A DNA stretch of 64,000 nt, taken from contig NIVC01000201.1 of NCBI GenBank assembly GCA_002269645.1, positions 248,001 to 312,000 on the forward strand, given 5' to 3'. The DNA comes from Macrostomum lignano. Lineage: Eukaryota. This document shows positions 20,251 through 48,799 of the stretch, piece after piece. Made by a program: the position numbers and the translations under genes. The notes beneath the pieces were generated by a model that was not told where the DNA came from, ran no database searches, and worked only from the letters and a program-made list of their open reading frames with translations. Position 1 is the stretch's first letter. Each line of letters starts with the position of its first letter.

Positions 20251-22055
20251 TTTTTCTGGGTCTCCGCCTATTAGCAAAAAAGCTGAGAAGAGATGCAAAC
20301 CTTGAGCGGGCTGGATTGTTATTGGCATGGGAAGTTAGAAAGGACCCGAGGGCCGGATAGAGAGACTGCGGGCCGCATGTGGCCCGTGGGCTGGTGTTTG
20401 CTGACCCCTGCAGCCTGCAGTAGGCTATGCATGACGGGCCCAGTTAACTGCATAATGGCAAATAAGAGACATGGGAGATTGGAGATAGGAGACTGTCTCC
20501 CCTGTCTCCCCTTCATTTATCTCCCCGATTACGAGTAGGGCACAGTCACTCAGTCACATTTTGATACATAGACATAGATATTTTCTCAGTTTTCATATTC
20601 ATAGGCGGTCAGAGCTCAAATGGGACAGGTCATGAATAAATAACAATCTAACCCCCGCCTTGTCATTTTTCCGGATGAATAAATCCACTGAATCATAAGG
20701 TTTCAAAGTGCATTTGCGTTCTCATGACAGTTTTTTGCCACTCAATTATTCTAGTCTTACTGAATCCCCGAGTTAACAGAAAATTATAGCTCGGCGCACG
20801 TCCGCCAGCTTGAATATTCTCGCTATATTGTTCTCTATTTGCGATCGTCTTTTACAACCCGACATCAATAAAACCCGTGTGGGCTTTATCTCTCATTAAC
20901 AGAAATCTCTCATCAATTATAGCCTGTATAAAGCTTACTCATTTAGAGTTGCTCTTAGAAAAATGTTTTGAATTTCCTGGCCAGTGGCAATAACCCGTAA
21001 TGACAGGGCAATGCAAGGAATTATTTTAACCTAGAGGTGACAGCTAATTTTGGCCAATTCATTTCAGTTGGGGTGGGGGGTCAGAAGAAAGGCTAGAGAA
21101 GTGATATGGGAATTTATACGTTGTACCGTTCTTGCCTGCTTAAGCGAACCTATGCGAAACAAACAAACTGTCCTGACTCCTTATCAGTGCAGGTCATCAA
21201 GTTTTTTCTATTCCCATATTGCACCAAAGATAAAGGAAGAACAAAGACGAATTTCGTGCGAGGCTTGACAAGGTCTGAACTATATATGTATATTTTATAA
21301 GTTACAACCTAGCATAAACACATAAATACTTTGATACGGAAAGTATTGATTCGATCTGACCTAAAATAGGTGCCAGCAAAAGAAAGAAAATATTCATAGC
21401 ATTTTATATGTGCTTAAAAGTAAAACCAGATGGTAACAGATGGAAATTGCAGTTGTACAGCTAGTTGATTATTATCAATGGGATAAGTAAAATATTACAA
21501 AAATTCTGTTGGCTTGAATTGGAGGTAGGAATATTGTATACAATACCATTAGTATTTCATATACTGGGGTTTAAGAAAATAAATCCCCCATTTCAGCCGC
21601 ATCACCTCCCACTAAGTTTCCGGCCCCTCCACCCCTCCTACACAGTTTTGAGCTAAATTACCCCTCCGGCCTCTATAACACCGAATTTTAAGCTGTACCT
21701 AATTCTAGGGTTCAAGAATGTAAACAATAAAGAGAGAAGCAATATAATCAGTCTCTAAAATAACTCCAGTTCATGAATGACCGATCGCCAGGCTTGTAGT
21801 AAACTCGTGAAACTGCGGATCCTAAAAGTAAAGATAAAATGGCAGTTTGCGATCGAGTATGCATCGTAATATACTAATATTTAACTCATAATCCACAATC
21901 ATGTCTGCGTGTTGAAGCTGAGAACATATTCAGGAAGAAATTGCATAATTGCAGAATACAGGGAATACGAGAATCGAGATAGAAGGAAATCGGATTGATA
22001 TAAAAAAACAGAGAAAGATATTTTTAGTACTCACTTGCGACTCACGCGTCCTACA

Positions 22056-24081: not shown

Positions 24082-24445
24082 TGTTTTCGTCCGAATCAGA
24101 CTTTGATGATAGTTGACTGTTGTAATAAAGTAATTACTACGATTGCTTATTTCGTATTAAAGAAAGTATATGAACAAAAGCTGGGAAGAATTGAAAACTA
24201 TTCCTTTGGGGGTTTGTGCGCGCTGATTGGACAGGTATGGGTGCGGGGACGGTAGGGCCAATGAAATTAGAAAAGCCAGGGCGGCCTTTTTCATTCGAAG
24301 AACTATAGAAGACAATTGCTTCTAGAAGCAACCTAAACCACTGAATCATTAAATAAGCATAAACTATAGTGTGAGCTCCAAACTCTTGCTTTATTTGGTA
24401 CTCAGTTTTGCACTAGCATAGTCTAGTCTGCATGCTACAACTACA
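24082..24445. promoter_or_regulatory. Putative bidirectional promoter between the transposase and accessory gene A
   Basis: The ATGs are head-to-head 364 bp apart; a GC-rich core has CCAAT boxes in opposite orientations (24226-30, 24258-62). Confidence 0.5.
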
Positions 24446-30200: not shown

Positions 30201-31649
30201 GTTTCTTTAACAGTACTACATTGCAATACTACAGTATTGCAGTACGCTCGTACTACATGTAAAACCTTCTTTACTTTCTTAACTCTATGCTAATATTTAT
30301 GAACATCGCCAATATATCGTAAAAAAGCTATATGTGAACTTTTTTGTTAATAAAAAATAAAATAAATATACTCGCTTTCATAAACTAGCTCTGATACCGA
30401 GTGAGTTTCTTTTGTTGATATTACAGAAAAATGAGGCAAATCCTGCGTTGCAAACTATAGGCTTCAATATATAAAAACAAGATGGAGTGCCTTTACTGTG
30501 CTCACTACTGCTAGTAGTATGTACGAGCTCTCACAGAAAGGTTGTTAGAAGGTTGTTTAATGGTGGGTTACCAACGTTGGCCTACAACGTTGAAAAAACC
30601 GTACAAAGCGGGTCAAAATTAATGTAATTTAAATGTTAAAGAAACACCTAATTTCAATGATTGGAAAAACGTTGCACCAACATAAGTGGCAGTCCGGGGT
30701 AGTCAGTGGTGGAGCATTCTCCAGCACCTGTAGGGAGTGATGGTCATTCTCCAGCATCCGTAGGCAGTGATGGTATTCTCCAGCATCCGTAGGCAGTGGT
30801 GGGGCATTCTCCATCATCCGTGAGCAGCGATGTGGCAATTATACAAATAAAGCCTTTGCAAAGATAGCAGGCTTTCCCCCTAAAAAAGCATCCCCAAGAT
30901 AGCAAGCAATCCCCCCAGATCGCAATCATCTATGAATTACAAAACTGTTTACTCCTCAGGGTCGCTGCTTGTCCGCCGCTGTTCACCAAGTTGGCAAGCG
31001 CATTGTCAGATGAAATCAACACTCGCACTGTCAATGCCATGCAGCGCCCCATTGTTCTCCACACCCTCTCTTCTCATTGTAAACTCCGTCTGGCCTTCAC
31101 GTTTTCAACTGCAAATGCGGCAATTGCAATTGCAGGGGCAAGGTTGACAATTTTTGGTTAACACCATATTTTAGAACTGAAAAATAAGTACTGAGAACCG
31201 TTTTTTTGCAACAATAGGGCAATGGGTCATAGGATGATCATTCGCTGTGTATCTGAGAGGAGCCTTCGGATTACTAAAAGTAGTGTTGTCTTTAAATGAG
31301 CATGTCTGGTTTACGGGATATAGCATATTCTTAGCATTACTATTCTTAGTATTTAGAAAATTTATACACATTGATATGTACTTTTCAGTAATAGTAACAG
31401 CTACTATATAAGCTAAATAGCTTTATATTTTTAGTATAGAGGATTTGGATTAGAGCTGCGTCTTCGTGTCGCGCTGTTTATGATTTTCTATCTTGATTTA
31501 CATTACAAATAGCTATGAAAGTCCTGTGCATTTTAAATGCATTTTAAAATCATTAAAATCATAAAAATTGTTTTAGTCGGTTGTGTCACTTAAGCGGTCT
31601 GTCTTGAACAACACATTCCATGAGATCTTGTATCTCGACATCAGTCAGA

Positions 31650-32049
31650 TTAGCCGGCATTGGTTCTGCATTCGTGTCCGAAAATAGACTTTGCGTGAGA
31701 GCTTCGAAGCATGGTAAAAAACTTTAGGAATTTGCCACTTGTATTACTTCTTACATTAGCTCCTTTGCGAACAAGCGGTTCGTTGTCCTTGTCCTCGTTG
31801 TTGCGCGATAGACTCTGCGCAATTTTAAAAGTTTGTCTTCCAATCCGCTCCTTTTCGATTTCCTTGTCCAAGTTATCCATTTGATCTCTCATTTCCATCA
31901 TATTTTTTGAAAGAGCATCTTAAGGCATGTCTCAGTTTTTCGAGGTACCTCAGCTGGTTGTCCTTGCTCTACACCCTGACATGTAGATTGATACAGATTC
32001 AGGTACTAGGTACATTCGTTGAAAACTACTATTCTCCTTAGCTCGCATT
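31650..32049 (-). pseudogene. Maverick uncharacterised gene remnant (MYLVP motif, coiled coil)
   Basis: MRAKENSSFQRMYLVPES starts right after the GGFLP gene and resembles the KKM(V/Y)LVP start I recall in that position in Mavericks; frameshifted. Confidence 0.4.
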
Positions 32050-32050
32050 C

Positions 32051-32430
32051 CTACTTTCGTTTAATTGATCGTATTACATTTGCTCCTCCCGCGGCGGTAC
32101 CAACTACTCCAGACGTTATCCTAAGCGCAGTGCTTATAACAGGTAGAGCAGCAATTATTGGAGCCAAAAAAGGTAAAAATCCTCCGTGTTGGACAAGTAT
32201 TTTCTTTTTTGCAGTAATTGGAGTCTTCTGTTCCAAAAGCTGACGTATATATCTGCGATGCTTCTCAAGTCGTCTTTTGTTACAGTTACTAATTTTAATA
32301 CGTCCACTAATAATATTAAACAGAAAGTCTACTAGACACCGTATCTCAGACTCTGAAAGTATTTAAAAAAACTTTTTCTCTGCTTTGGATGCTTTAGCCA
32401 ACACACAATTTGAAGTAAAAAAGCACATTG
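32051..32430 (-). pseudogene. Maverick GGFLP protein (adenovirus protein X-like core protein)
   Basis: Across frameshifts it reads CLVDFLFNIISGRIKI...RLEKHRRYIRQLLEQKTPITAKKKILVQHGGFLPFLAPIIAAL; the GGFLP plus hydrophobic helix recalls adenovirus pX. Confidence 0.75.
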
Positions 32431-32534
32431 ACACAACAAGCAAGCATTTCGTTTTCCTTTTTCTGTTAGTTTGCTTATTCTTACAAAAGAAATTCACTAA
32501 ATTTTCTTTAAAACAATTAATCTTTGCTTATAAG

Positions 32535-32850
32535 TTAGTCCGACCTACGTCTAAAATGCAGTACGAAAAAACGTGCTTTAGGACGAAAATTAAACGGCTT
32601 TCCGCGCTGGTCCGACAGTCGAATAGAAATCTCTTGAATTTGTTTTCGATTTGTTTTCAAGTAGCAGGGCGTTTGCAATGCACTTCTATTGCGTACAAGT
32701 TCTCCGTTTTTCTTTTGTCGGAGTTCCACAACTCGAAGCAACGGTACTGATGTACTTCCCACTGCTTAATACTCGATTACACATCATCCAAGTAAATTTT
32801 GTTATTGCGCCAAATACCATTTCTCAACTAATATTGGTGTAGTTTGATGT
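32535..32850 (-). pseudogene. Maverick minor capsid (penton) C-terminal remnant
   Basis: IYLDDV.EY*AVGSTSVPLLRVV...IQEISIRLSDQRGKPFNF...VLHFRR matches the recalled penton pattern IYxDIIExQIVGD..PLLRxV...LHFRR. Confidence 0.7.
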
Positions 32851-33009
32851 ATAATCTCTCCTTTCGTTTTTTGAAGATAGTCTCCAAAAATAGATAAATA
32901 GATAGATAGCGAAACAAGTCTTGTAGAATCACCAGGCGATAGAACACAATAGTACACTGCCAGCGGTAGGCTTTGATAATTTTTTTCCGAGACTAATCCA
33001 GAAATTTTC

Positions 33010-33700
33010 TTCTAAGAGTCAAATTTGAAAGCTTCCATAAATGTAACTGGTAGTTCTAACCCAATAGTTTTTCACCTGAATTTCGTAAAAGCCAGGCAAA
33101 TTTTTCATCTGTACCAGACGCGTACGGTTGCCAGGAAACGTAAGCATTCAAGTCTGCCTTTGCCCAAACACGCCCCCAATAGTTTTTCTTTGATCGTATT
33201 ATTGAGTATTATTTGTCGACCGAGATGTTTAACTGTGGTTCGATCGCGCACACTACAAGTTAGACAAATATAACTAGCTGATAAACTTCGCATGCGCGCT
33301 TCTGGATCAGATGGGTTAAAAAGACCTTGTCAAAGATACAGACCAGTCAAAGGGATATAATGCGCATGCTTTGTAAACATACTAGTACGCTCGTAAATTC
33401 TGGCAACTTAGCAATCTCACTTCGCAAGTCATCAACAACAAGCAAATCGTGTGGTAAAAAACAATTAATCATCTGCGGCGTAAATTCGGGCACAAAAACG
33501 ATAGGGCCAAGGCCAGTCTTTTCCCAGCATGTTCTAATTTGTTGTTGCTCGTCTGATTTCAAATTTAATCCATTGCACCAAACAAGGCGTGTTTTTATCA
33601 AATAATTCTTTTCGTTGAGTCAGCAAACGCAAAGTCCGTTCAGTTTTACCCGAGTAAATAATAGCTCGTAAATGTAGAATCATGAGCTAGCTGCATACTC
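33010..33700 (-). pseudogene. Maverick FtsK/A32-like packaging ATPase remnant
   Basis: Degenerate Walker A SGKT (33642-53) followed by LL....F; Walker B LLVVDDL; RIISL..SYICLTCSVRD...HLGRQI motif; frameshifted. Confidence 0.8.
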
Positions 33701-33724
33701 GTATTGTATGAGTGCATTTTCAAG

Positions 33725-34113
33725 CACCAAAGCGTTGCTTAACTTGCATGCATAACCTATAACTTCGCAGCAGCTTTTCTCTCCAACAAGTAGATGGATC
33801 GTGGGCAATCTCTCGTGCACCAGATACTAACAGCTTATCCGCTTTAAACCTCTCTTGCACGTCAGAATTTTTATCATAGGCCACGTCGTGAAGCATGCAA
33901 AAATGTCAAGCCGATTAATTCCTCGTTGTCCCTTTGCAAGCCTAGCTTGTAGTTGAGTACCTTGACCACAAAACTGATATCCGCCGGGCAAATGTGCTTC
34001 AAGTGGTAAATTGTTAATTGACTAATTTACGACACCAAAAGCTTGTTGCTTCTTAACCTTTCTAGTTTCAATTGTTGCAATCTTTAAAGCTATTTTTACG
34101 TATATTTAGGCAT
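33725..34113 (-). pseudogene. Parvovirus-VP1-type phospholipase A2 (PLA2X) remnant
   Basis: LPLEAHLPGGYQFCGQGT (Ca-binding loop), then RLAKGQRGINRLD, a frameshift, then CMLHDVAY (catalytic HD) ...ERFKAD. Confidence 0.85.
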
Positions 34114-34195
34114 AATTTTTTTAAATTGCTTAGTGTTACAAAGCACCCGCATAGTGCACCAATCACCAAAAATCAGTTTATTATATAGTTATTGA

Positions 34196-34620
34196 TCAGT
34201 GCTGCCAAAGCCGCCAAAGCCGCGTCTTTTGCTTGGTCGGCGGTTCAATCATTCCAATTAAATTGTCTGCCTCCGTCACATAGACTGAAGCAAGCACGGC
34301 TTGTTCCAGAATCAGCTGTGCGATGGTAAGGCCAGCATAATAGTTTAAATCTTCTGGGCTGCAGTTAAACAAAACAATAATGATTTCGCCCGTATAGTCA
34401 GGATCGTTGACGCCCCCGCCGACAAATATACTGCGTAGCGCCATGCTAGACCGTCCTGCTATTCTCCCATAGGTGCCTGGCGGTAGCCGAACTTTGATTC
34501 CTGTTCGGACACTTCAGGATTCGTAGGCCGGAATGAAGTCATCTACGCCTGCGTATAATCATATCCAAATGAACTGACAGTTTTTCGGGTTGGAATCGTG
34601 GTTGACTCATACAAACGTTC
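34196..34620 (-). pseudogene. dut: dUTPase remnant
   Basis: Motifs read across stops and frameshifts: PTRK..SFGYD, RTGIKVRLPPGTYGRIAGRSSMALRSIFVGGGVNDPDYTGEIIIVLFN, IAQLI, GFGST. Confidence 0.9.
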
Positions 34621-34744
34621 GACCAAAAGTTTTTCTTGGAATATAAACGCTAGAAACTACATTCACGTCGACAAACACAAGCTTAAACAAGTTGTTATGT
34701 AATGCGAATCTAACTATAAAAATATATTAAACTCTAAAAATTAA

Positions 34745-37700
34745 CTTGTCCAGGATCGTTTCGTATCGAAAAAGCTCATTAAAAGCTTTCTTTGTTGCAC
34801 CAAAAACACTTTTTGTTTTCGACAGCAAATGGATTGCATGCGCGAAAAACTCATAAGCCTAAAAAAGGCGTAGGCATCATAAGCGTAAAACTCTAAAATA
34901 GTCTTTATGCTTTAAACTTTGTTCCACGGACCTACAGACACCTTTGCAGCGCGAGACTTGATCTATAGTTCCATTGGCATACACGAAGGAGTAATTTTTT
35001 GGTGGCAAATACGAGCTATACTAGTTCCAGTAGTACAAAACCTTTAAACTAGTCTTTCCAAGCCAAAAGTCGACCCTTGTGCTTTGTCAAGTACAGAGCA
35101 TGCATTGGAGAATAGTTATTCGTGTTTAGCAAACGTTCTGCCAAATCTCTGCAAAAAGTTGTTATTTTAATCACTTAATTCTTTACAACAACGAATTAAA
35201 ACGAACTGCGCTAAATTATCTTGCGACATTTCTTGATTTTGTTATAAAAAAGTGTCCAATGTGTCCAGTGCCAGCTTTTATGGACACCCAAGATTTTCTT
35301 TACGTTTAATTCAATAGATTTAGATTATTATACCTATTAAGACGTGACTTTTATTATTTCAAGAATTTCTTTCGTGTAGTTTAAGTTTTAAATATTAATA
35401 TGAGCGTAATTTAGTTTTAGAAGAAGAATACACGGCCAAACCAATAAAGTTGTAGTTTTAGTTAAAGAAAATGCAAAAGACTAATCTCCATTTGCAATGG
35501 GGTGAAAAGAATGCGTAACCTTAACGGCTTGAATCCTATACGATGCCACCAAATGTGATAGGTTTAAAATTAATGCGACTTGCCGGAATGAAATATTGAA
35601 CTAATGCTAATTTGGCTACCAACGACAAGTAGTCTGTCGCGGATATTATATATAGCACCGAAAAGAGACAGGCCCTTTGTCTCGAGTGACCTATAGTTTC
35701 CTATGGACCCTATGTCTCGCGGGACTCTAGATTTCCGCTGGGCTCCTTGTCTCCTAGGCTCTTTGTCTAGTTGCAAACTATGAATCACTTGTACTTTAGC
35801 ACGGCGGTGACTCAGCGTCTGGCACAACTCAGACAGGCCCTTTGTCCGCGATTGTTAGCTCCGCAATGAGCGGAGTGACTTGGTCCTCTATTTCCGGTAA
35901 CAACAAAGGTTCCAAAAAACTTAGAATTTCGGTAGCTACGAAAATATGGCCTAAGGCTTTACTGCTTATATTGCACCAGCCGAAGAGCGTTACCCTGAGA
36001 TGGTCTGATAAAGTAATGCCAATGGTTTCTTGATATATTACGTTCCCCGATAAGTCAATCCGAAAGCTAGATAAGTCACGAAAGGTAGTTCGCTGCCGCA
36101 TATCGAAGCTATGATTAAATGACTGAGACAAATCGCTATCAAAGAAGATTTTGATTAAATTGAACTTAATAGCTTAAATTGAGTTTCGAAATAATAATAA
36201 ATTGACGTAGTTATTAAACGATAACTTAATAAATAAATAAAGTAGTGCACCAGCAGTAAAATAATAACGACTTAACAATAATTAATTAGCTAAGATAAGC
36301 TCGGCCTCCTGTGTCCTTACTAAACATAGTCTGTTAGAGCTAAGATTTAAGTCTACCTGACTAAGCTCAGTAGTTACGAGCTTCACTCACACTAAGACTC
36401 ATAACGAGTACTAATCACTAGTCATTAACTAAGTCAATTATCAGGCACTACAGGCCGGGCCTACACAAGACAATAGTACTAGACTGGGAGCACACAGTCC
36501 GGGCTAGAAAAACGAGAGCCAAGGCAAGAGCGCAATTTAGAACTGGTGCGCGCGGTATTTATATACCCGCAAAGCTAGTGCATTAAAACTAACTAAAACT
36601 AAAACTAACAGTCACTTTGTCGCGCAGATACGGTATGCTATTCGTTGGCGCTTGTGCACGAGCTTCAGTGAATTAAATTTGCATGTTAGTATTACGTCAT
36701 TATTCATAAATAATATAATAATTGATTGCGTGATTAACGAGTAATCCCAGGAGTCCTACCATACATGTACATTCTAAAATAAAGACGTTATAGAGATTAT
36801 AATATTATTGATTAGACATAGTATACTTGGTAAATACTGAAATGGAGCAATCACATGAACAGATTACTAGCAAAATTTGATGAAGAGTTAAAAAATGTCT
36901 GAGATAGGTCCCAATATTCAAATGCTTAAGTTGCATTGCTAGTTTTTGTTAGTTCCACTTGGTAGAATTCTGTGCTCGTTTGAGACACTTTTACACACTT
37001 CACGTCCTGTGTAAGAATTGGCGAGTTGATATATAGGTGTTGAATTTGGCTAGAAATAGCAATTGATGACATGGTTTCCGTTCTTGACTCGGTATTTGTA
37101 GGCCTATTGCGAGCTATTGCGATTGTTAGGTTGTTGTAACCGACTAGTGGTGATGGTGTACGCAGTTGGTCTAGGACAGTTGTTGGTGGTGGTCGTGGGT
37201 TCGTTGGTGGACTAATTGATTGACTAATAGATCTTAGGTAAGTGCGATCTAGCTTGGTTGTTTGTCTCTCACTATGAATCGAAGTCACTCTTGCAAGAGT
37301 TGTAGAAGATGACATTGCAGAATTGGATGCGGTTGCCTGCTCATCGCGTAAAGGCACCATTCTTGATTGCTGTAGAAATGGTTAGATGAGGGTAAATTTG
37401 GTAAGCGTATATGCAATATGTATACAGAATCTGAACTAGCAGACAATCAATCTAAACAGAAATCGAACTAGCAGACAATCAATCTAGAAACTGAATTAAA
37501 GTAGGTAATTATCTTACCTTTTTTAACACAGCTCTCGGCCAATTCCTCCTGACGTGATCGCTTCATTTGACTAACGATGCAAGTATAGTCGAACAACTGG
37601 TGTAATGTAAACTTAGTTTGAGTTTTATTGAATGTTTTCCTTGTGTGCTGTATATATAGACACGCTGGCGATGACAAATTATAATATAATATAATATAAT

Positions 37701-39750
37701 AATATTAATATTATATATGAATCATATTATACATATATATACACACAAAAGCATGCAGACGTGGTTGGTATAGTATCTGTAAACCTTTTGCTCAAGTTAG
37801 TGGGAAAAACTATTCGTACTTGATAATAGAGAATTTTTTATCTTTCTTCAAAAGGGTGATAATAATCGCAAGTTTTCAATTCCACATTTCGATAACACTT
37901 AAAATGTGTGAATAGCTTTGAAGTTAATTTAACTTGAGTAAAATCTTATGAATAGTGTGTTTGTGTCACCATTCCTAGATTCGTTAACCTTGTATTTTGG
38001 ACAGGTGTCTATGCACATGTCATTCGTCTGGATAACCAATTATTCGTTGCGTAAAAGTTACTCAACGTGCACTTGAAATTTTAGACTGTGTGTACATGGA
38101 ATTTCAAACTGCGTGCACATAAAATTTCGGACTGCCACTTTTTGGGCCTTTACTAACTATATATTTCGCCAAAAGGAAATCGGCTTTGTTAAAAAAGCGT
38201 ATACTACTAATCTGTTGTCAAGAGATCAAACTCGCTGGCGATGACAAAAATTGAAAACAATCAAGTTGATTAGCTCGATGCGGTTTCAGATACAAGACTG
38301 TACCTTGCTTGCGACCGATGGATATCAGAACTTTAAATGCAACTCTTTTCTTACGGATCGGTTCGGACCGGACTGCTGCAGTCCGGTCCACACCTTCGTG
38401 GGACGTATTTAATAGTGTGCTTGCATGGCTTTTGCGATTAACTCGAGTGTCACGTTATTGGCGTAGCGGCTAACTATGGCTATGACCCTTAAAAGGGCCG
38501 TTTTGACGAGAGTTGTAGTGAGTCGTAGTCTCAAAATAAGTTGAAGTCAACTCTTGTAAAGCGGATTTTGTAGCGGAGCGCTTAGCGATAAAGGCAGGAA
38601 CTGCCGTAGTTGTTTTTATTGGTAGTATCAATATTAGGCTTGGTTATTACTGTCAATACACAAACTATAGCTTTCTGGGCACTGGCGGCTGCAACAATGG
38701 TTTTTGAAGATAAATTGAATGTGAAGTCAAGTGGCAGACGAATGATGCAATGGCGACGTAACGTGATGAGCAATGGCAATGAGCACAGTGAAGGCAGTGA
38801 GACGCAGTAGGCAGGCAGATGAGCAGTGGCGAGGTTGGCGTCAGCCGTGGCGTGAGATAAGGAGGCTCGAGGCAGCCAGACAGAGAGAAGGAAAACAAGG
38901 CTAGACAAGGCTAGGCAAGCCAGACGGGACGGAGGACAAGCCTAAGGAGAGAGAACACCGAACACAAGTGAAGCCCCCAGCCCGCCAGGCGAAGGTTAAT
39001 AAAGAGCGCAAAAGGGGGTAGCGTAAAACACGGAGAGTTTTCATTGGCTGGCGAGAGGACTTGAAATTATCGATCGTGCCAAAATTCACAGACGGGCGCA
39101 AGGTCTATCAAATACACAGTGAATTAGCAGTTGATACAGATTATTTGCACGCTACTATAAGTAAACGTTAAAATAAACTATTGGAGAAATTAAAATGAGA
39201 AATTGCAAGGGAAACTATAGTCCAACGGCCCTTTTGCGGGACCACTTAAACTAGCAACGTCACACGAGCATCAAGTCTAGCTGTTCGATTGCTCCATATT
39301 GCCAATTACTACCTCAAGATGGAAAATCATCAATTTTTGTCAATAGCTGATTAATAACACGTGCGAACCAGTCATTGTAGGCCTCGGGAGATAACAGCAT
39401 GTCACTATTTGCAATAGTCTCATCGAATGATATTGTCGCATTGTTGGTATTGAAATAGGCCGAGATTATCTCCTTGCTTGATTCATTGCCGTCGCCGTCG
39501 TCTGCTGCTGTCTGTTTCGGTCGAGATAGTTTCACTTTTAAGTGAAAGCAGACTCATTAATAAACTAGGCGAATCAATTTTTATCAATATTTTAAATATT
39601 GGTCCTCTTAAAGGTGCAATCAACTCGGCAGGAAGTAAAACCCGAGCTCTCTTGTTCACTCTGTTCAAGAGTTGGAGTAAATTCAATAAAATTAACCCAA
39701 CCACGATAAGCTGACTCGCGCAAAGCGATGGACCACCCATCTGGTGGGTT
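34745..39750 (-). pseudogene. Protein-primed family-B DNA polymerase (pPolB) of the Maverick, highly degraded
   Basis: Motifs appear in the expected order: IDDF..GSNW (39300), LRRHC and LRYK..F..VDFNL.*DYDS (38515-38750), LDCFQFLSS, KKGK..YFNS (37480), LFGAIYNIRDR (35650), LNTNNYSPMHALY..KGRLLAWKD (35050-35170), PKNYSF..CKGV..KHKDY..KKALMSFFDTKR (34750-35020). The middle motifs are weak. Confidence 0.7.
37679..38232 (-). mobile_element. 554-bp insertion (probably a 5'-truncated non-LTR retroposon) inside pPolB
   Basis: Flanked by a perfect 16-bp direct repeat CGCTGGCGATGACAAA (37663-78, 38233-48), with an (ATTAT)n tail at one end. Removal joins LDCFQF-LSSPA-CLYIQ in one frame. Confidence 0.75.
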
Positions 39751-41799
39751 TTCGAGCAGGTTTTGCAGCGATCCGGTCAGTAATCGTTACGGCGAAAAAC
39801 AATCACAATGCGAGTGGGGATGCAGCTCAGCTTGATTGCTGAACTTTTTTCGGCATTGTGCACGTGGCATTGTGTGCACCTAGCTAGTGCACTGGGCCGT
39901 ATCGAGCACAATATTATTAGGTTCAGAGTTAACTACGGTATGTCATTTGCGGCTGTAAGAAAAAATGATGATTTGGTTTGGTTGGATTTAGCTGACACAT
40001 TTACTAGACATGAGGAAACAAGGCAAAATGTTTGTGAAATAATGCATCGCAACTGCGATTTGATTATAATTGTTTACTTGTTTAGTTCAGTTTAGTTAAC
40101 ATTTGAGATTTAAAAATCATTGACATGGTTAAGATATTCAATTCATGACTGTTTTGAACACCCATAAGAACAAAATTTTTCGAAAAAAATGTTACAAAAA
40201 GCCTTTGTTTTGATGTTGATTAAAAAAACTGCTTGTGGAAAATTTTCTGCGTCGTATCCAACTAGATAATCCGAATAGTAACCTGCATACTCTTTTTAGA
40301 CTAGGGAACCCGAATTTTGGCCAAAGATGACCAATAAAGCCAACAGTGACTGCTATGAATTTTTACTGAATCGTAATGTACACAATTAATAGTATCGTTG
40401 ATAAATCGTAAAACTAAAACTACCTGACAATTTAATTTACAATTATATATAGTTTAGTTTCCTGCTGGACAAAGTTAGATTTTAGCGTTTTAATAAATTA
40501 AACTACCTTTAGCATTGTTGATCGGCTTAAGAATAGTTTGCAAAACTGGTTTCTGGCCTGTAGCTTCTGTTTGACCTGCTTTAAATCAATTTTTTTAAGC
40601 GGACGCAGATTCAGACTCGCAGTAACTATTAATAGGACAAGTCGCTAAAACGGAAAATAATAATTTTAACATGACTATTCTATCGTAAATTCTGATAAAT
40701 TACAAAACCTGGTTGGCATACAAGGAGTTAACGGCAGGAAAAATGTTTTGAGCGTTTTTTCCTAAATAATGTTTCCCTAGCCAAATTTGACAAATATAGT
40801 AGAAAATTTTAGTTAAAACTTTATGGGTAAAAACTTTGTCGAAATTTTTACTCATCATCATCAGAGCTGTACGAATCGTCCGATGAAGACAAGCTAGCTG
40901 TAGTAGCGTCCGCAGCACCGCAGCAGCAGCAGCAGCATGCTTTAAAAATGCCGTCTGGCTGCTGTACTCACCAAGATCTTTAGTGGAGCCTCCACCCAGT
41001 CTGTACCATCAGCTCCACCAGAATTGCTTTGCTGTTTAGCACTGCGTTTTCGCACTTGTTTTTAAACGGTTCAGTAGACGTCGCATTCGATGGAGGTTTA
41101 TTTGATTCAGCAGTCTGACGCTGGTGCTTAATTGTAGCTAACTTGGTAGGCGTCACCTCGCTTGAAGTCTGCAGGCTTTGTTTCTCTGCTTTTGCTGGCA
41201 GGTAGACGGGGACGGACTCCTTACTGGCTTGCTTGCAGGCAGGTGTGCAAGCACACGTCAAGGTCAAGGACTACTATACGTTACTTTAGTCGTCCTTGGT
41301 CAAGGTGCTGCAACATGTCAGAAGATTCGATAAGCGTTAGAGAGCGTACAGTGAATGTAATACGCCAGACGAGGCTCCCTTTCGGACAATACAAGCTCGT
41401 TGCTTGCACTGTCATTTGGTAGGTACCGCTGACTCAGAAAATCAGAAATGAGCATCTCTTTTCCATGTGGATGTTCATTGTCGATCCTGATTGTGGCATA
41501 AGGATAAGCAGACTTTATAGCCAGCCATTGTTGAGGCACATACCCGAGGACGTCGTTAGCATGCTGATGAGGTGCTTTTGTTATTCGTGTCAACGTTCGA
41601 GCATCTTGGATCTCGTTCAACTTGGCCGATAGACTGTTTTCGACATGGCTGCAAAACATTGTATTAATTATTATTTATAGTCCTTTAAATTAATCGCGAG
41701 TCGCGAGAGTCGTGCTTAAAAGGCGAGTTGTCGAATTCCGGCCTTTCTGCGATTCCGCGAAAAAGCTCCATAGGAGCTTTGGTTTGGAGAATTATTGGA

Positions 41800-42720
41800 T
41801 ACCATTTTTTACTCTTGATTAAAGCCTTCCACGCAATAGACTGAAACTGGCAGGATGAACTGGTTGTGGATTTAGACTGTTCTCGAATTTAATAAATCGG
41901 ATTTGCCTCGGAGCGCAAAATTACTCTATTGATGCAAGCGACCATGTCTTACAAGCGATCGAATTTTAGTATTAATTCTTTTGCTGCAATGAGAGCTCAT
42001 TAAAAATTACCCATTTTCGGGTCTTGCGTCTATAGCAAGCATTGCATGATATGCAGTCATATATTGCCCGAGCAGCATTTTTACGCAATACGCTAGTCTC
42101 CAAGACGTATCATTTTAACGTAAATACTGGCATTACCTGCACTACACGGCATGTCAGTTCATGCCTTAAAACGCTGCATTGGTCTCAAGCGTAGTGCCCT
42201 GCAACTGGTCACATACTGCATGAAAAAAGCAATTCCCATCACCCGGGATCCGAACAACACCTAGCGTATTTTAAAGGAACCACAGCTGGTGTGGCCAACT
42301 CACCACTGTCAAACCTGAAAGATTGAAGTTATAATTAAGACAGAGCTTTTTTATATACTCTGTATATTTACAATTGCAAAAAAGTCATAAATGGACAAGA
42401 ATTAGAATGTTTTTACAGAAGGCTTTGCCAACAAGATAGTACCATTGCACTAATTCTGTTACGAATTTTTCATTGGTGTCAATCTTACCACTTGTTGGCT
42501 TGATTTAGTCTGCACAGGACAGCTGGTCAGAGGCATTCACTTAGGGGCATGTAAATTTCAAGCATTACTAATGAGCATGTAAGAACAGTTTGCAACCCTC
42601 CTCCTTTTGCAACCAGGCTTGGGACTGGCTTCGGCGGAGTTAAAGCCATCGCAAGAGGGTGCATTTGCATGTACGAGGACCATTCCAAAAGTTCATGCAA
42701 TCAGAGAAGAGATTTTCTCT
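41800..42720 (-). mobile_element. Degenerate second copy of the OTU-Helitron
   Basis: 42170-42330 aligns with the OTU segment 51570-51720; 42365-42710 aligns with 48455-48715. Confidence 0.75.
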
Positions 42721-42724
42721 CTCA

Positions 42725-42925
42725 TGAGCTAATTTGAGCTTTTATCACTGCACTACGAGACTCTGGCCGAACCCTTCAATCGGAACACTTAATTCATTCA
42801 ATTTTCCTATCGCTTGGAAGACGAGTCTAATTAAGCTTCTATCATTGCACTACGATACTCTCTGGCCGAACCCTTCAGCCGGAACACTTACTTCATTTAA
42901 TTTTCCTACAGCTTAGGAGACGACT
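42725..42925. repeat. Two tandem ~100-bp units
   Basis: TGCACTACGA...TCTGGCCGAACCCTTCA..CGGAACACTTA...TTTTCCTA repeated twice. Confidence 0.8.
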
Positions 42926-43234
42926 TTAACAAACTCACAAAGTAGCAAAAATCAACTTTTAATCAACGGGCATACATAATATAAAATCTCTTCCTTAATC
43001 TGCACAAATGCACCGGTAATTAATAAACTTCTGGATTGGCCCACGTATTAGAGTGTAAGAAATCTACCAGGGACATACAAAAGCAGCAAAATGTCCATTT
43101 TAGCCTAAAAGCCTAAAAACCTAGACTCTTTCAGGCCCAGCACGTCTGCAGCCAGCCTGCTATCAACATTGGCAATTGCAAAAATATTCCTTGCAATAAT
43201 GTAACACTTCATTTTTAATGTTCCAATGAAGATA

Positions 43235-43465
43235 GCTGAAATTCTCAGAAATCCCATTAGCTGAAATTCGCAGAAATACCATTAGCTGAAAATCTTAGAA
43301 TGCCCTGCCCATAAGCTGAAATTCTCAGAAATCTCATTAGCTGAAATTCTGAGAAATCCCATTAGCTGAATTTTTCAGAAATCCCATTAGCTGAAATTCT
43401 GAGAAATCCCATTAGCTGAAATTCTCAGAAATCCCATTAGCTGAAATTCTCAGAGTGCCCCATTA
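43235..43465. repeat. 25-bp minisatellite (TAGCTGAAATTCTCAGAAATCCCAT)
   Basis: Unit read directly. Confidence 0.9.
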
Positions 43466-44009
43466 AAGAACTTCTTAGAATGCAATTAAACGGTTGCTAT
43501 TGGGTTACCCACTATAGTGGTTTTTGCGTATTAAAAACTTTAATCAATTTTTCAGTCCATCTATATCTTAAATAGCGCATATCCTAAATTTTAGTCTCCA
43601 AATTTGGCTTACGCACCCAATCTAAAAGAACTTTATATTCATGCCAATGCCAATGCAGCAGGAATTTTAGCATGTAGGGCCAGGGTAGCAATTCTTTTTT
43701 CCATGCTAAAACTTTACTTGTGATGGCTTTTCAACACATGTGCTTCAATAACTCACTGATTTCTTGAACTGCCAGATAAATCTTCGCATGACATTCTCCT
43801 TGTTTCATCCGCCTGCCTGTATAGTTTCTTTAGAAAGGTATATTTAATGAACAAAAATTTACAAGTCTGTATATTACTCGGTCAGGAATGTATAAAAATC
43901 TGTTTTAAGCAATGTTGTAGTACGTTAGTGTGTAGAAACAAATTAAATAATGTAAAAAAATTGTAAAATTAAATAATGTAAATGTAAAATAATGTAAAAT
44001 AAAAAATGT

Positions 44010-45296
44010 AAAAAATTTTGCATGTTCAATGAACACGCGCACTTTTATTCCTTCTCCAAAGTCCAAGTTCATTTCGTCTACATCCCGGAAGGATTCGTGC
44101 GAAGCCGGTAGTTGCATAAAAATTCGCCTGTTGTTTTCCCTTTGGTCAGAAGAGTCACCAACCGCGCCTGATGGACACGGAGCACCCAGAGGTTAAAACT
44201 GAGTTTCATGTACCAGTACTGGTATCATGTACTGGTATTCGTGTACCAGTCAGTCAAAGTCGTAACCTCTGTGCTCTGTGTCGTCCGAGTTGAGCCGAAC
44301 TTCAGAGCAAGTACATCCAAGTACAACAGCGCCGGCGTACTCCTGTACTTTTGCTCGTCGTATCGACAAAATGTCGCCGACACTCCAATTGACAGTTTGA
44401 TCGGAGGACGACCCCCAAAACGTGCAGGAGACAGAACGACAGGACTGGTCAACAAGAGTCACTGGCTACGTTTATCCGCTTCCCAGCCTTCGTCACAACT
44501 TCCTCGGGCTGCTGCAGTGTGTAGATTGCTCCAAGGACATCGACTTTTCCAATAAAAGGCAATTAAGAGGGGACAATTTTTAAAGTCTTTTAAAACCTCA
44601 AAACGCTTTTTGAAGTTCATTTGAATCCTACCTACATCAATAGACGAATGAATATAATGGACTGCTAGTCTAGCCAGCATCAAAGGATGAAGGCATAGAA
44701 TGGATTGCTAATCTAGTCGAAATAATTTATAAAAGCCGAACATACACTACTGTGCTACACAATTGCTGATACAATTCACATTTTCTATACTAATTTGTCT
44801 ATTGTACATATATATTGTATACTGTCTGTCTATACAATACATACAAGTAGATAGATCCAATGCAACTTACCCTTGCAGGCGTACGTTTTGAAGGTCGCTT
44901 ATTCGCGTATAGTTACACGCCCGTTCACTAACAGTCGGAACTTCATTGCTTCGATATATTGATCCCTTGGAGTCAACTGAAAGAGACACCTCCATAGGAT
45001 TATTTGTGCTGTTGTATCTCGGATCTGAAGTCTACCATTCCACCGGCTATGCGAACAGCATCGGAAGTATTGCAAAAATTCCCAAATAGACCGCAGGTCC
45101 TTGCCGAAAACGCTGACTCTCATCTTAGCCGAGTCGTCCACCAAGACGAATGAAATAACTTCGTTTCGAACTTCGTTTTTCGTGTACAACTTGATCTCCT
45201 TCAACTCGGTCACGAGGCCAGTAACCGCTGCATTCATGTAGCCCAGTTCAGGCCGGAGATTTAAGCCTTAATCTTCTTGCTGATTGTAGACGCCAT
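44010..45296 (-). pseudogene. RPA70-like OB-fold ssDNA-binding protein gene, frameshifted, with at least one intron
   Basis: The first OB fold reads NLRPELGYMNAAVTGLVTELKEIKLY...SFVLVDDSAKMRVSVFG. The linker PRYNSTNNPMEV...YTRISDLQN is followed by a GT donor at 44870. The second OB fold reads TLVDQSCRSVSCTFWG...ILSIRRAKVQEYAG...RLNSD..LTDWY, resembling RPA70 DBD-B. Confidence 0.75.
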
Positions 45297-45430
45297 TGTT
45301 TCTAAGTTGTTTAGTTTTAACAAAGTAGAAACAAAACTTAGAAAATAGAAAGAGTTTCTAGAAATGTTGCAGTGCAAAATACTTCAGTAGAAATAGCAGA
45401 TTCAAAAACACAATTGCAATACATTTTGAC

Positions 45431-45491
45431 TTAAATAGTCAAGCCTACACCCCAATCACCACCAGTCAACCCACACCACTAAACAGCCAAT
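45431..45491 (-). promoter_or_regulatory. TATA-like box (TATTTAA) with two upstream CCAAT boxes for the RPA70-like gene
   Basis: TATTTAA at 45437-45431 and CCAAT cores at 45452-56 and 45487-91, ~135 bp upstream of the ATG. Confidence 0.45.
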
Positions 45492-46594
45492 CAGAATACA
45501 GATACCCCTCCCTCCCCTGTCTGCAATCTCTTCGTTTCCAGACTAAATCCGCCGGGGTGGGTGGGGTCTAGACCTTACAAAAGCGTGATCTCGCGAGGCT
45601 AATTGAACTGCCACGGCCAACCCCTCTCAAGGTTATCTGCGATTATCGTTTTTGTGTTTTGTATTTTGAGTTTTGTGTTCTATATATTTAGTTAAGAGAA
45701 GATAATAATTTTCTTTAAAGTCAACACCATTAAACCAGTTATCCTGGGTTACTTTATGATGTTCTGGAGATGCACAAGTGAAAAGATGGATTTTATTAAA
45801 TTAGTCTTTGTATGGCATCCATTATTTAGCATGCAAAATGTCCATTTCAGAAGACTAAACGAGGCGAGTATTTTAAACAGTACAATGATCTTCGGCGCAA
45901 GCGCCAGGCACCAATGGCTGCTGCATCAGGACCTACTGCCAAATCACAAAAGCAGTATCAGCGAGAGTACAGATGGCGCAAAGCAGCGCAGTCGCATCAA
46001 CTGATCAAGAACCGACATTAAAAAGTAGGCTGATAGCACATGGAGCAAGAAGTTCTGATCATCAACACAAGACTAATTACAACTGCGTCAAACATGTGCC
46101 GGGATTAGTGTACGGGAATCAAAATATTTTTTAATTGTTAAATAAATTGCTGTTCCATTGTTGAAACTGCTTAAATTTAATTAGATTACCTTTGCCTTAC
46201 ATTTTTTGCTCCACGTTAACTTTTGTTTGAATTTAATTTGGATGACGTTGTTCTTTCTATTAATACTCACACTGCATTTACTATGTATAGTGTGCTTTTG
46301 GTAATCTTTTTATGTTTTTCACTGTTACGTTAAGTCGTTATATTGCATTCTCATACTGCTGTTTCCTTCTTTTTTCACTGCTACAAACTACTAGCCAATC
46401 AGCATCTTTTGCATTTACAGTGTTATAAATACACACCTAAAAAACTGTTTCTCCCATTTTGTTACCCAGATCCACTACCAAACTCAAAACTCTTGAGAGA
46501 ATTTTACCTTAACTTCTATTTGCTTTTAATCAGAAGTGAATAATTATTACAATGGGAAATTGTCAGCCTAAGCAATTTTCTTACAATAGGCAAA

Positions 46595-46925
46595 TTAAAC
46601 CATCAATTGTAACTTTTGGTAACTTTTAAGAGCTTCTCACCAGAAGCGAATGGAAACATCAATGGCAACTTTTGAGAACTTTTGGGAGCTTCTCAACAGA
46701 AACGAATGGAAACATCAATGGCAACTTTTGGGAACTTTTAGTAACTCCCTATCCCCGTACGTGTAAAATTGAAATGGTAACTTTTGGTAACTTTTCTGCA
46801 AAAAGTTACCATATTAGAAAAGTTACCATATTCCGGCCCTCTGATTGGCTATGTGTGTAAATGTTTCCTAACGCGTACGCCTTCCGATTGGCTGCGAGAA
46901 TGGTAACCTTTTGGTAACTTTCATA
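46595..46925. repeat. Cluster of GGTAACTTT/GGCAACTTT motifs in both orientations, including a ~45-bp duplication
   Basis: Motifs read directly; inverted copies AAAAGTTACC at ~46801 and ~46818. Confidence 0.75.
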
Positions 46926-47301
46926 GGCAAATGTTCCCATAAATGTTTCCATAATTTTTCAACGGGATCGTACGTATTGTTACTGCTTTTTCATTTCACC
47001 TCTCTTAAAAGTGTAGAGTTTTATAAATACTTAAAACTTACACAAACTTTCTTCTTTCTTGTTAACTCTTAAAGCAAACAACCCGTAGAGTTCTAAATAC
47101 AGAACGCGTACACACATTTGCTTTCTCTCTTTCTTCACTCTTTGAAGCAAACGAACCAATCGTACAATCTTTAGTACAATCTTACAAACTATCAATCTTA
47201 GTCAAATTATTAAATTTAATTCTAGGCTTAAGTATAAATCAAACACGATTGTGTTAAATTAAAAAAACTGACAATTTCACCATACCTGCCTTCTTTCACA
47301 G

Positions 47302-47456
47302 AAATAGAATGCTACTTCTGCGGGGAAAATCACTGAGTGTCTCGCTGCGAGGCAGTGAAGCAATACTACGCACAACAGCGGCATGAGCAGCAGGCACAGC
47401 AGCAGCAGGAGAAGCAGCAACAGCAGCAGCAGCGACAGCAGCAGCACAAGCAATAG
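47302..47456 (+). pseudogene. Exon-like remnant: CX2CX3HX4C zinc knuckle followed by polyglutamine
   Basis: After a polypyrimidine-AG acceptor it reads IECYFCGENH*VSRCEAVKQYYAQQRHEQQAQQQQEKQQQQQRQQQHKQ*. Confidence 0.45.
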
Positions 47457-48799
47457 TACTGAATAGCATCCACCACAGTTCCACCACATTCAAGTAATAA
47501 AATCCAAAGAGCAAGTGCTGAGCTTTCAGTGGAAAATTATCTTTCAATATTCTAAATAACTGTTTATTCGTGATTTAATATTGTCTTGCTCTAATAACAT
47601 TGGGGTTTGATCTGATTTTTTGTTAATCCTAAAATAAACATTTCAAAATAGCTTAATTTGCTGCCTTTTTGAAATTTGCTAAATAGTGTGGTTTCTGAAC
47701 TTTCTCTTTTGAATTAGTGTAGAGGCGCAGTCATTGGCGGAAACTAATATAAAACAAATTAAATTTTACTACATGCACTTACAGTAAAACACTGCAACCT
47801 GGAACTGCAATATTGATGACGCACACGAACCTGTACATTTAAAGTAATTTAACTAACTAAAATACCAGAATGGCTGACAATAAATATACAGTAAACTTTT
47901 CTGCTTAAACTTCAAACAAAGCAACTTTTTAAAATTATGCAGTGTTCCGAAAATAAGGGACGTAATAAGAGAGCAGTCCCCATTGATTAATCCTTTTCTC
48001 TGCGTATTCAGACAAAAAAACAAGAAAAACTTTCCTACAAAAAATTATCGTGGGACTTAATTGCATCATTCGACTTGATTAAAAGAAACACTGCTTCGAA
48101 CTTTGCTGAACTGCTTCGTTATTTTAGGAGTTTACTGAATTCTACTCATTAAGTGCAATAAAAACAATACAAAACAATGTTGCAAAACAATTCAACAAAG
48201 TATTGGATCAAAATTTTAATCATTAATCATTTTAAGTTTCCAAGTGACTATAACCCAGCCATTGAGCCATAATCGGACTACTACTACTACTACTACTACA
48301 CGAAACAGTTATGACATTAGTGTCATAGTGTCATTAGACATCAATTTGTTAGGCAAGTCAGTACCAGTCTCTATTAAAGTGAATAATATGGTTACGCAAT
48401 ATAAATAAAGTATTGTGCTATGCTTCCACACTGAACGCTGTTAATTTATTTACTCTGTATTTACAATTGCAAAAAGTCATAAAAGAATAAGAAACGAGAT
48501 ATTTTTGCAAAAGGCCTCGCCAACAAGATAGTACCATTGCACTAATTCTGTTACGAATTTTTCATTGGTCAATCTTACCACTTGTTGGCTTGATTTAGTC
48601 TGCACAGCTGGACAGAGGCATTTAAGAACATAAGCATGTAAGAACAGTTTGCAACCCTCCTCTTTTTGCAACCAGGCTTGGGACTGGCTTCGGCAGAGTT
48701 AAAGCCATCACAAGAGACTATCTGGGGTCTTGCTGATGGGTCCGCAAATACAGCAGCCTCTCTGCCTCAATGTTTCGCTTGCATAGTATTTATGGGGTT

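What the first reader, a model, noticed from the sequence alone, without database searches (positions are those of the whole stretch)
31650..39800. Fossil Maverick/adintovirus hidden in apparently non-coding DNA
No long ORF survives, yet at least six hallmark genes can be read across stops and frameshifts, all on the minus strand: pPolB, dUTPase, PLA2, packaging ATPase, penton and GGFLP/pX-like. The order is virus-like. No integrase, protease, major capsid or AGTAGT termini were found, and the left side appears cut off near the 30-bp repeat unit. It may represent an undescribed lineage for this host.
Basis: partly seen in the sequence, partly recalled or inferred. Interest (0 to 1): 0.72.

Follow-up and report, generated by a model that had tools for sequence, protein, structure and literature searches.

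The report
Decayed Maverick with polymerase-less living kin
This stretch is a broken, rearranged remnant of a virus-like Maverick element, and the same animal genome holds about fifteen near-identical insertions of a close relative that kept its capsid and integrase genes but lost its DNA polymerase, so they likely spread by borrowing that enzyme from the two insertions that still have it.

Summary
The fossil is real. dUTPase, PLA2, A32-type ATPase, penton and pX remnants are confirmed. All 9 genes examined carry stops and frameshifts and decay neutrally.

- Only the two ends of pPolB survive.
- An AGTAGT terminus is present at 38208, joined into pPolB, so the locus is two nested pieces.
- The element runs on to about 42050 and includes a TATA-binding-protein (TBP)-like gene.

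The family is alive in this genome. Two insertion sites carry a full polymerase. About 15 sites with 6-bp target duplications carry a near-identical copy with one shared 3.16-kb polymerase deletion, seen in runs from four studies. These copies keep integrase, capsid, protease, ATPase and TBP genes, plus a 293-aa frame that likely encodes the terminal protein. They are likely replicated in trans by the full copies (inferred).

The scan had already noted the TBP gene, and a Polinton split into polymerase and capsid halves, on other DNA of this genome. Fossil Mavericks are ordinary; the polymerase-less amplification is the noteworthy part.

The parts
41696..42049 (-). Remnant of an unnamed 144-codon frame of the family; right-hand limit of similarity to the living element (piece A)
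   Evidence: tblastn E 2e-29; blastn ends at 42048
40957..41674 (-). Remnant of an unnamed ~280-codon gene (no Pfam hit)
40104..40644 (-). Broken TBP-like gene (4 stops, about 8 frameshifting indels)
   Evidence: tblastn E 1e-36; profile hits; unbroken homolog: Pfam TBP 2e-7, PDB profile 5e-9, AlphaFold pLDDT 91 and Foldseek to TBP 5e-8
39265..39879 (-). pPolB N-terminal region, residues 1-207 (zinc finger and likely terminal-protein domain), broken
38448..39264 (.). 817-bp solo-LTR-like insertion (TGT...ACA ends, 4-bp duplication CGAG); absent from both sister copies
   Evidence: empty site also in run X11
38209..38447 (-). pPolB residues ~208-315 (linker and start of the likely vOTU domain), ending at the junction with a terminus
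36772..38208 (-). AGTAGT terminus and first ~1.5 kb of a second copy or second end of the same family (piece B)
   Evidence: 72-81% blastn to the end of the full-length copy on C84; bridged by a contig of run X3
35560..36772 (.). Unrelated dispersed repeat inserted in the fossil (69-82% to 37 other places listed)
35291..35474 (-). Further remnant of the family's non-coding arm, 68% identity
34747..35159 (-). pPolB tail, residues 1271-1400
   Evidence: junction at 35160 bridged by a contig of run X3
34199..34632 (-). dUTPase remnant
33723..34063 (-). PLA2-like gene remnant
   Evidence: homolog Pfam Phospholip_A2_4 4e-9
33195..33738 (-). A32-type packaging ATPase remnant, 3' part deleted
   Evidence: 19 of 25 aligned homologs hit Pox_A32 while the family's own protein does not at E 0.01
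32538..33207 (-). Penton (minor capsid) remnant, 5' part deleted
   Evidence: model of the homolog matches mavirus penton E 2e-5, TM about 0.33 and viral minor capsids
32054..32493 (-). pX-like core protein remnant with GGFLP motif, preceded by a TATAAG box at 32532
31556..32048 (-). Remnant of an unnamed ~230-codon gene; left break of the element at 31583 (integrase, major capsid, protease and second terminus lost)
30699..30837 (.). Host 30-bp minisatellite; not part of the element
   Evidence: same unit at 11245-12157 and 14545-14844

Best explanation
The window holds a dead, nested remnant of a Maverick (Polinton) family that still has unbroken members in this genome, most of which lack the polymerase core and are likely copied in trans by the polymerase of the few full-length insertions. 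History of the fossil: (1) a terminus of the family was joined into the pPolB gene of a same-family copy. The junction is shown; that the element's integrase made it is inferred. (2) Deletions removed the polymerase core and both outer parts (shown). (3) The segment was duplicated or diverged into three assembled copies 2-4% apart (shown) and has decayed without selection since (shown by pN/pS near 1). (4) A solo LTR then inserted in this copy only (shown). It makes no functional viral protein. Living family: about 15 insertion sites carry one shared 3.16-kb pPolB deletion, against 2 sites with a full polymerase (shown, with assembly caveats). The deleted form keeps the ends, integrase, capsid genes, protease, ATPase and TBP-like gene (shown), and a 293-aa frame that stops four residues before the conserved cysteine of the next domain (shown). 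That frame is predicted to be the terminal protein. Inferred mechanism: the deleted genome is excised or released, primed at its unchanged ends, copied by helper pPolB and re-integrated by its own integrase, like a defective viral genome that outbreeds its helper.
For: Fossil: gene remnants, reversed control empty; terminus-pPolB junction in all three copies; both internal junctions bridged by contigs of run X3; 9 of 9 genes with at least one stop and one frameshift; changes not shared among the three copies pN/pS 0.97 left and 0.73 right, shared changes 0.31 and 0.35; solo LTR, empty sites. Nesting precedent: another AGTAGT element with a 6-bp duplication sits inside a copy on C4072. Living family: 30 places with the exact deletion junction; 0-5 mismatches per 4.4 kb among 9 loci; 45 identical 36-nt ends with 36 distinct flanks, 15 of 20 upstream-type flanks pairing with an exact 6-bp duplication (shuffled mean 0.44, maximum 4 in 2000), two more pairs read by eye from the same table; polymerase core absent in 9 of 9 deleted copies examined, all 14 other frames unbroken in 3 of 9; junction present in contigs of 4 of 4 runs from 4 studies. 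Domain order terminal protein, vOTU, polymerase is from PMC11161782 (sections 6-8 read); invariant Gly-Ser before the last strand and invariant Cys with near-invariant His in 11 pPolBs fit it.
Against: No replication, excision, particle or transcript was observed. The terminal-protein and vOTU labels got no significant PDB sequence hit and were not folded. The deleted copies differ from the polymerase-bearing copies by 4-6%, so those are relatives, not the direct parent. The assembly is chimeric across copies (C84, C4161 and C4450 join ends of different sites), so the interior of any one site is uncertain. Contig depth at the junction is only 1.9-6 times that of the polymerase core, lower than 15:2, and depth is no copy number. 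6 of 9 deleted copies show 1-4 broken frames. The sister copies change their pairing along the fossil, so their number and origin are unsure. The fossil is nearly uncovered in runs X16 and X18.
Confidence: 0.78

Rival explanations
1. The polymerase-less copies spread without any helper polymerase, by integrase-driven cut-and-paste with host repair or replication making extra copies, as an ordinary DDE transposon would.
For: They keep an unbroken rve integrase with chromodomain and make 6-bp duplications. They outnumber the full form.
Against: All 45 ends found are identical over 36 nt, including those of polymerase-bearing copies, which suits shared trans-acting replication but is also needed by integrase. 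Capsid, protease and ATPase genes are retained at 14.7 kb. A polymerase is available at two sites.
Confidence: 0.2
2. The many deleted copies are mostly assembly or segmental-duplication products of one or a few insertions.
For: Chimeric contigs and identical flank pairs exist (C2542/C3539). Many copies end at contig ends. Depth ratios are lower than site ratios.
Against: 36 distinct flanks and 17 different 6-bp duplications; junction seen in four studies.
Confidence: 0.07
3. The window fossil is one element rearranged internally (its own end attacked its own pPolB, as in auto-integration, or a block moved), not a second copy inserted into a first.
For: No part of the element is present twice in the window; the left and right pieces are about equally diverged from the living family (shared pS 0.18 and 0.15).
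Against: Needs a circle or block to re-enter in the same orientation. Nested insertion of AGTAGT elements is seen elsewhere in the genome. The second target duplication is lost, so the two routes cannot be told apart here.
Confidence: 0.3
4. The fossil has been co-opted by the host (regulatory or coding).
For: It persists in three assembled copies; one TATAAG box survives before pX.
Against: Every gene examined is broken and post-duplication changes are neutral; two repeats inserted into it.
Confidence: 0.03

Closest known systems
Polintons/Mavericks (adintoviruses), Alpha-like virion module (PMC8502044, passages; PMC8097293, passages)
   Same: Full-length relative (19.6 kb on C84) has AGTAGT inverted ends, 6-bp duplications, pfam03175 pPolB, rve integrase, A32 ATPase, penton, major capsid, adenain-like protease (weak Pfam hit), PLA2 and pX. 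Most Mavericks in genomes are fossils (96% in vertebrates, PMC8097293).
   Different: All genes lie on one strand. PLA2 and pX are separate genes, not one PLA2X. dUTPase and a TBP-like gene are present. Terminal repeats are short (about 108 bp). The window copy is nested and lacks the polymerase core.
HNH-bearing pPolB2 Polintons of nematodes and oomycetes (10.1101/2023.08.22.554363, passages)
   Same: pPolB carries an Endonuclease VII/HNH domain inside the exonuclease region (Pfam 1e-11).
   Different: That paper treats the HNH domain as unique to nematode and oomycete pPolB2. The nearest Atlas clusters with both domains are mostly arthropod and cnidarian. No tree was built, so class membership is untested.
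Non-autonomous internal-deletion derivatives of DNA transposons (PMC3014272, passages) and defective interfering viral genomes (recalled)
   Same: An internally deleted form with intact ends outnumbers the complete form.
   Different: Here the deleted form is 14.7 kb, keeps integrase and all virion genes and loses only the replicase core plus 1.6 kb of a non-coding arm. That paper found no non-autonomous Polintons in Anolis. Defective vertebrate Mavericks described in PMC8097293 are broken by stops and frameshifts, not by one shared deletion.
Adenoviruses and the Stylophora polinton with a stand-alone terminal protein (PMC11161782, sections and passages)
   Same: The deletion leaves the N-terminal domain as a separate open frame cut just before the likely vOTU cysteine.
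   Different: Those genomes keep a polymerase gene; this one does not. The terminal-protein identity here is inferred from position and motifs.
Viral TBP homologs (giant viruses and mirusviruses in the search listing; herpesvirus vTBP, recalled and named in earlier scan notes)
   Same: Two-repeat TBP fold, 20% identity to cellular TBP.
   Different: Encoded by a Maverick, upstream of pPolB, apparently spliced (frame opens after a pyrimidine-rich AG in 6 of 6 subfamily copies looked at); DNA binding untested.

Membership tests
Polinton/Maverick (family, judged on full-length relatives) | Protein-primed family B polymerase | tested here: met
   Open frames of 1414-1415 codons on C1136 and C2373; Pfam DNA_pol_B_2 4e-20
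Polinton/Maverick (family, judged on full-length relatives) | Retrovirus-like integrase | tested here: met
   rve 4.5e-8 plus chromodomain 1e-6
Polinton/Maverick (family, judged on full-length relatives) | A32/FtsK-type packaging ATPase | tested here: met
   19 of 25 aligned homologs hit Pox_A32; the family protein itself does not at E 0.01
Polinton/Maverick (family, judged on full-length relatives) | Minor capsid (penton) | tested here: met
   Model (pLDDT 74, pTM 0.47) best matches mavirus penton, E 2e-5
Polinton/Maverick (family, judged on full-length relatives) | Double jelly-roll major capsid | tested here: inconclusive
   442-aa frame with 38 homologs, four named 'F54H12.2-like'; that this name marks the Maverick capsid is recalled; not folded
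Polinton/Maverick (family, judged on full-length relatives) | Adenain/Ulp1-like protease | tested here: inconclusive
   Peptidase_C5 only at E 0.04, below cut-off; His and Cys motifs visible in the printed translation
Polinton/Maverick (family, judged on full-length relatives) | Terminal inverted repeats starting AGTAGT and 6-bp target duplications | tested here: met
Intact (autonomous) Maverick, judged on the window locus itself | Unbroken core genes, two ends and a target duplication | tested here: not met
   Polymerase core, integrase, major capsid and protease absent; one internal terminus only; 9 of 9 remnants broken. Filed as a remnant, not an intact member.
Autonomous Maverick, judged on the 14.7-kb deleted form | Own polymerase | tested here: not met
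   Residues about 296-1348 deleted in 9 of 9 copies examined
Alpha adintovirus (PMC8502044) | OTU-pfam03175 PolB and PLA2-type accessory gene | tested here: inconclusive
   pfam03175 and PLA2 met; OTU only by Cys/His pattern; PLA2 not fused to pX; no tree
pPolB2-HNH class (10.1101/2023.08.22.554363) | Placement in the pPolB2 clade | not tested
   HNH-type domain present; no reference sequences fetched, no tree
TATA-binding protein fold | Two-repeat saddle fold | tested here: met
   (TM about 0.45, rmsd about 7 A: the two halves are placed differently in the model)
TATA-binding protein fold | Binds a TATA-like box | not testable with these tools
   TATAAG lies 50-60 nt before penton, pX, ORF167 and PLA2 starts, but 8 hits on the coding strand against about 4.8 expected is weak

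The most novel reading that the evidence does not exclude
This family is a Polinton caught behaving as a defective interfering virus in an animal germline: a polymerase-less but capsid-, integrase- and TBP-complete genome, whose deletion frees the terminal protein as a stand-alone gene, has been replicated in trans and re-integrated at about 15 sites, outnumbering its helper. The window fossil and a third, inverted deletion form show that the family keeps losing or splitting off its polymerase.
Probability: 0.5. Interest if true: 0.65.

Novelty: new variant of a known kind. Interest (0 to 1): 0.45.

Why it matters
The fossil itself adds little: most Mavericks in animal genomes are dead. Its living relatives bear on an open question, namely whether Mavericks replicate outside chromosomes as viruses and can complement each other. 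A single deletion form with about 15 independent target duplications shows that a Maverick without its polymerase can still multiply. It also gives a junction marker that makes free DNA, transcripts and particles of the defective and helper forms separately detectable in the natural host. The TBP-like gene, shared by the fossil and at least five divergent subfamilies, suggests an element-encoded switch for virion genes; the scan had noted this before on other DNA.

Tried and rejected
- Inverted-repeat search of the window: no pair bounding the element; only one internal terminus exists.
- Rfam on the window and six relative loci: no hit, so no group I intron in this family at gathering thresholds, unlike other Polintons in earlier notes.
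- PDB sequence profiles of the presumed terminal-protein and vOTU domains: nothing significant.
- PDB profile of the ATPase: generic P-loop hits only.
- Pfam and Atlas on the penton: no named family; the fold search was needed.
- Representative-library search with the TBP-like protein: 4 unnamed homologs at 40-42%. P0006 (a fibronectin-repeat protein) and P0001 (a 7048-aa protein with 62 repeated stretches, sequence not fetched) were rejected as spurious.
- Sequencing runs: no RNA holder listed; nothing is claimed on expression. Run X16 holds the living family but hardly the fossil; unexplained and not used.
- The VIA-align search did not run.
- No phylogeny was built, as no named reference Mavericks were on hand.
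- The stretch left of the window (L176) was fetched but not analysed.
- Literature searches for a Polinton TBP, flatworm adintoviruses and polymerase-less or helper-dependent Polintons: 5 papers, listing only, none on a Polinton TBP by title; 0; 0; 111 papers, 25 listed; 1, unrelated; 0; 1, listing only; 7, listing only. The library lacks most subscription papers, and I did not see Repbase or Kapitonov and Jurka 2006. Non-autonomous Polintons, and nematode Mavericks that carry cargo in place of core genes (recalled), may be described there. No supplements were read.
Full report
OBSERVATION. No stop-to-stop frame above 151 codons lies in 31650-39800. A DNA search of the own genome with 33000-34600 gave 74 matches from 40 of 55 candidates scored: two copies at 95-96% and over 25 near-identical ones at about 82%. 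Stretches around these carry unbroken frames, which I used as natural references. By tblastn they map onto the window's minus strand as, from right to left: a 144-codon frame, a 284-codon frame, a TBP-like gene, the pPolB start, the pPolB tail, dUTPase, PLA2, ATPase, penton, pX and a 240-codon frame (E 1e-14 to 1e-80). Integrase, major capsid, protease and ORF167 gave no hit in the 64 kb. Profiles made only from proteins returned by public-collection searches hit the window ATPase, penton and TBP remnants, and the reversed window gave nothing.

GENE IDENTITIES. Pfam names dUTPase, PLA2, pX, rve plus chromodomain, TBP, DNA_pol_B_2 and Endonuclease_7 in the relatives. The ATPase is A32-type through its homologs (19 of 25). 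The penton model (8 sequences, pLDDT 74) matches mavirus penton best (E 2e-5, TM about 0.33) and viral minor capsids. The TBP-like model (10 sequences, pLDDT 91) matches only TBPs in its first 44 ranks, and its profile hits 35 PDB sequences, all TBP-containing. The major capsid rests on homologs named F54H12.2-like (meaning recalled). The protease rests on a sub-threshold hit.

ANATOMY OF THE FOSSIL. The full-length reference on C84 is 19.6 kb between AGTAGT ends with about 108-bp inverted repeats. In the window the order is permuted. Piece A (42049-38209) ends in pPolB near residue 315 and is joined directly to an AGTAGT terminus at 38208. Piece B continues with 1.5 kb of the upstream arm, a foreign repeat, a further arm remnant, and then jumps to pPolB residue 1271. 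Residues 304-1270 give no match, and they hold every catalytic motif. Contigs of run X3 bridge both junctions (records 26 and 28). An 817-bp element with TGT...ACA ends and a 4-bp duplication interrupts pPolB in this copy only. The junction at a precise terminus points to integrase action. Insertion of a second copy and intramolecular attack cannot be told apart.

AGE AND DECAY. The window differs from the living copies by about 9-17% substitutions and from its two sister copies by 2-4.6%. All 9 genes aligned have at least one stop (18 in total) and at least one frameshifting indel (46 by this aligner). Changes shared by the three copies have pN/pS 0.31-0.35, which mixes earlier selection with decay. 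Changes not shared have 0.97 (left) and 0.73 (right), that is neutral (simple counts, no correction). The order of events is insertion and deletions, then duplication or divergence of the segment, then the solo LTR. No rate is at hand for an absolute date.

THE LIVING FAMILY. A polymerase-core query found three identical places (C84, C1136, C2373), then four partial matches at 91-95% and other subfamilies at 71% or less. The multi-copy form lacks 3162 bp of pPolB, from residue about 296 to 1348, and 1.64 kb of the upstream arm. Its exact junction occurs at 30 places, with 0 in the control. Nine loci differ by 0-5 mismatches per 4.4 kb. All 45 exact ends were fetched and give 36 distinct flanks. 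15 of 20 upstream-type flanks pair with an exact 6-bp duplication (shuffled mean 0.44, maximum 4). Two more pairs among ends my script typed alike are read by eye, and two ends stay unpaired. That makes 17 sites: 15 include a junction-bearing contig and 2 involve polymerase-bearing contigs. Within single contigs, 6 of 9 two-ended copies show the duplication and 3 are chimeras of different sites. Of 9 deleted copies examined (of 30 places), 9 lack the core, 3 have all 14 other frames unbroken and 6 have 1-4 breaks. The junction is in contigs of 4 of 4 runs from 4 studies, at 1.9-6 times the depth of the core; depth is no copy number. In 4 of 4 copies checked, the frame across the junction is 293 codons and stops four residues before a cysteine that is invariant in 11 pPolBs. 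PMC11161782 (abstract, sections 6-8 and passages read) describes a terminal-protein domain followed by a vOTU protease in Polinton pPolBs, with the linking Ser or Tyr next to Gly or Pro before the last strand. The invariant Gly-Ser in alignment A6 fits this, but PDB profiles gave no support.

MECHANISM. Shown: remnants, junctions, decay, the shared deletion, the target duplications and the retained genes. Inferred: that the deleted form is copied by helper pPolB at its unchanged ends, supplies its own terminal protein, integrase and capsid, and re-integrates (about 0.65 for this step, against about 0.2 for polymerase-free cut-and-paste and 0.07 for artefact). The overall confidence of 0.78 reflects near certainty for the fossil and moderate support for the helper model.

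COMPARISON. The family works like, and by its full-length copies is, a Polinton/Maverick with an Alpha-like virion module (PMC8502044, passages). The window locus fails the test for an intact member and is filed as a remnant. Fossils are the rule (PMC8097293, passages). PMC3014272 (passages) found no non-autonomous Polintons in Anolis, and PMC6431247 (passages) did not mention them in what I saw. An HNH domain in pPolB is known (10.1101/2023.08.22.554363, passages) and is common in arthropod and cnidarian clusters. Searches showed no paper on a Polinton TBP or on an amplified polymerase-less Polinton; coverage is incomplete and no supplements were read. Earlier AI notes on this genome call the host a flatworm (not checked here). 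They report the TBP gene with TATAAG boxes and a Polinton split into polymerase and capsid halves. I confirmed the fold and found weak support for the boxes. Look-ups for this deletion family and for this place returned nothing.

VERDICT. A real but ordinary fossil that leads to a less ordinary living family. New variant of a known kind; interest 0.45.

Noticed in passing
G000:C4072 about 14540-22995 (L122:7041 to L123:7995): An 8.45-kb element with AGTAGT ends, inverted repeats of about 1.2 kb and a 6-bp duplication sits inside the major-capsid gene of a polymerase-less copy. It encodes a pfam03175 polymerase (E 5e-17) with no tblastn similarity to this family's pPolB, and I saw no integrase or capsid frame. 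It fits earlier notes e1-8581114 and e1-8580994.
   Followed up: partly
G000:C300 (two places), C4827, C2428 (L144-L151): A third derivative of about 8.8 kb: the protease-side 1.5 kb and the upstream 0.9 kb flank an inverted middle holding TBP, a pPolB with a different 1.15-kb deletion and frameshifts, and dUTPase. The 1153-bp skip is seen in 3 of 4 runs. Its exact ends were not resolved.
   Followed up: partly
L107-L111 (C297, C362, C1391, C273, C4380): In one subfamily the TBP-like frame runs on into a P-loop kinase-like sequence (LEGVIGAGKST; deoxynucleoside-kinase-like by recall; Pfam gives only weak P-loop hits).
   Followed up: partly
G000: At least 150 pPolB matches (150 scored of 790 candidates), many in open frames above 1200 codons: a very large Maverick load with several families.
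   Followed up: no
run X16: Holds the living family, including one 3255-nt contig through pPolB, while the fossil is almost uncovered. Could be another strain, an RNA library or enrichment of free element DNA.
   Followed up: no
window 22198-24156 (-): 652-codon open frame with no Pfam hit; looks like a DNA-transposon transposase (CACTA/Mirage-like by recall).
   Followed up: partly
window 49104-50429 (-): 441-codon reverse transcriptase frame, Pfam RVT_1 E 3e-27.
   Followed up: partly
window 30699-47913 versus C3922 and C616: Two sister copies of this segment at 2-4% substitutions. They are nearly identical to each other on the right and not on the left, which suggests assembly mosaics or recombination between duplicated segments.
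   Followed up: partly
window 37658-37728: About 70 bp of AT-rich sequence absent from the living element, starting with a 16-mer that also occurs at about 38233 beside the nested junction; possibly a templated repair insertion.
   Followed up: no
L024:1570-1660 and homologs: The linker after the N-terminal pPolB domain is a poly-glycine run encoded by a GGC/GGT repeat, variable in length among copies and subfamilies.
   Followed up: no
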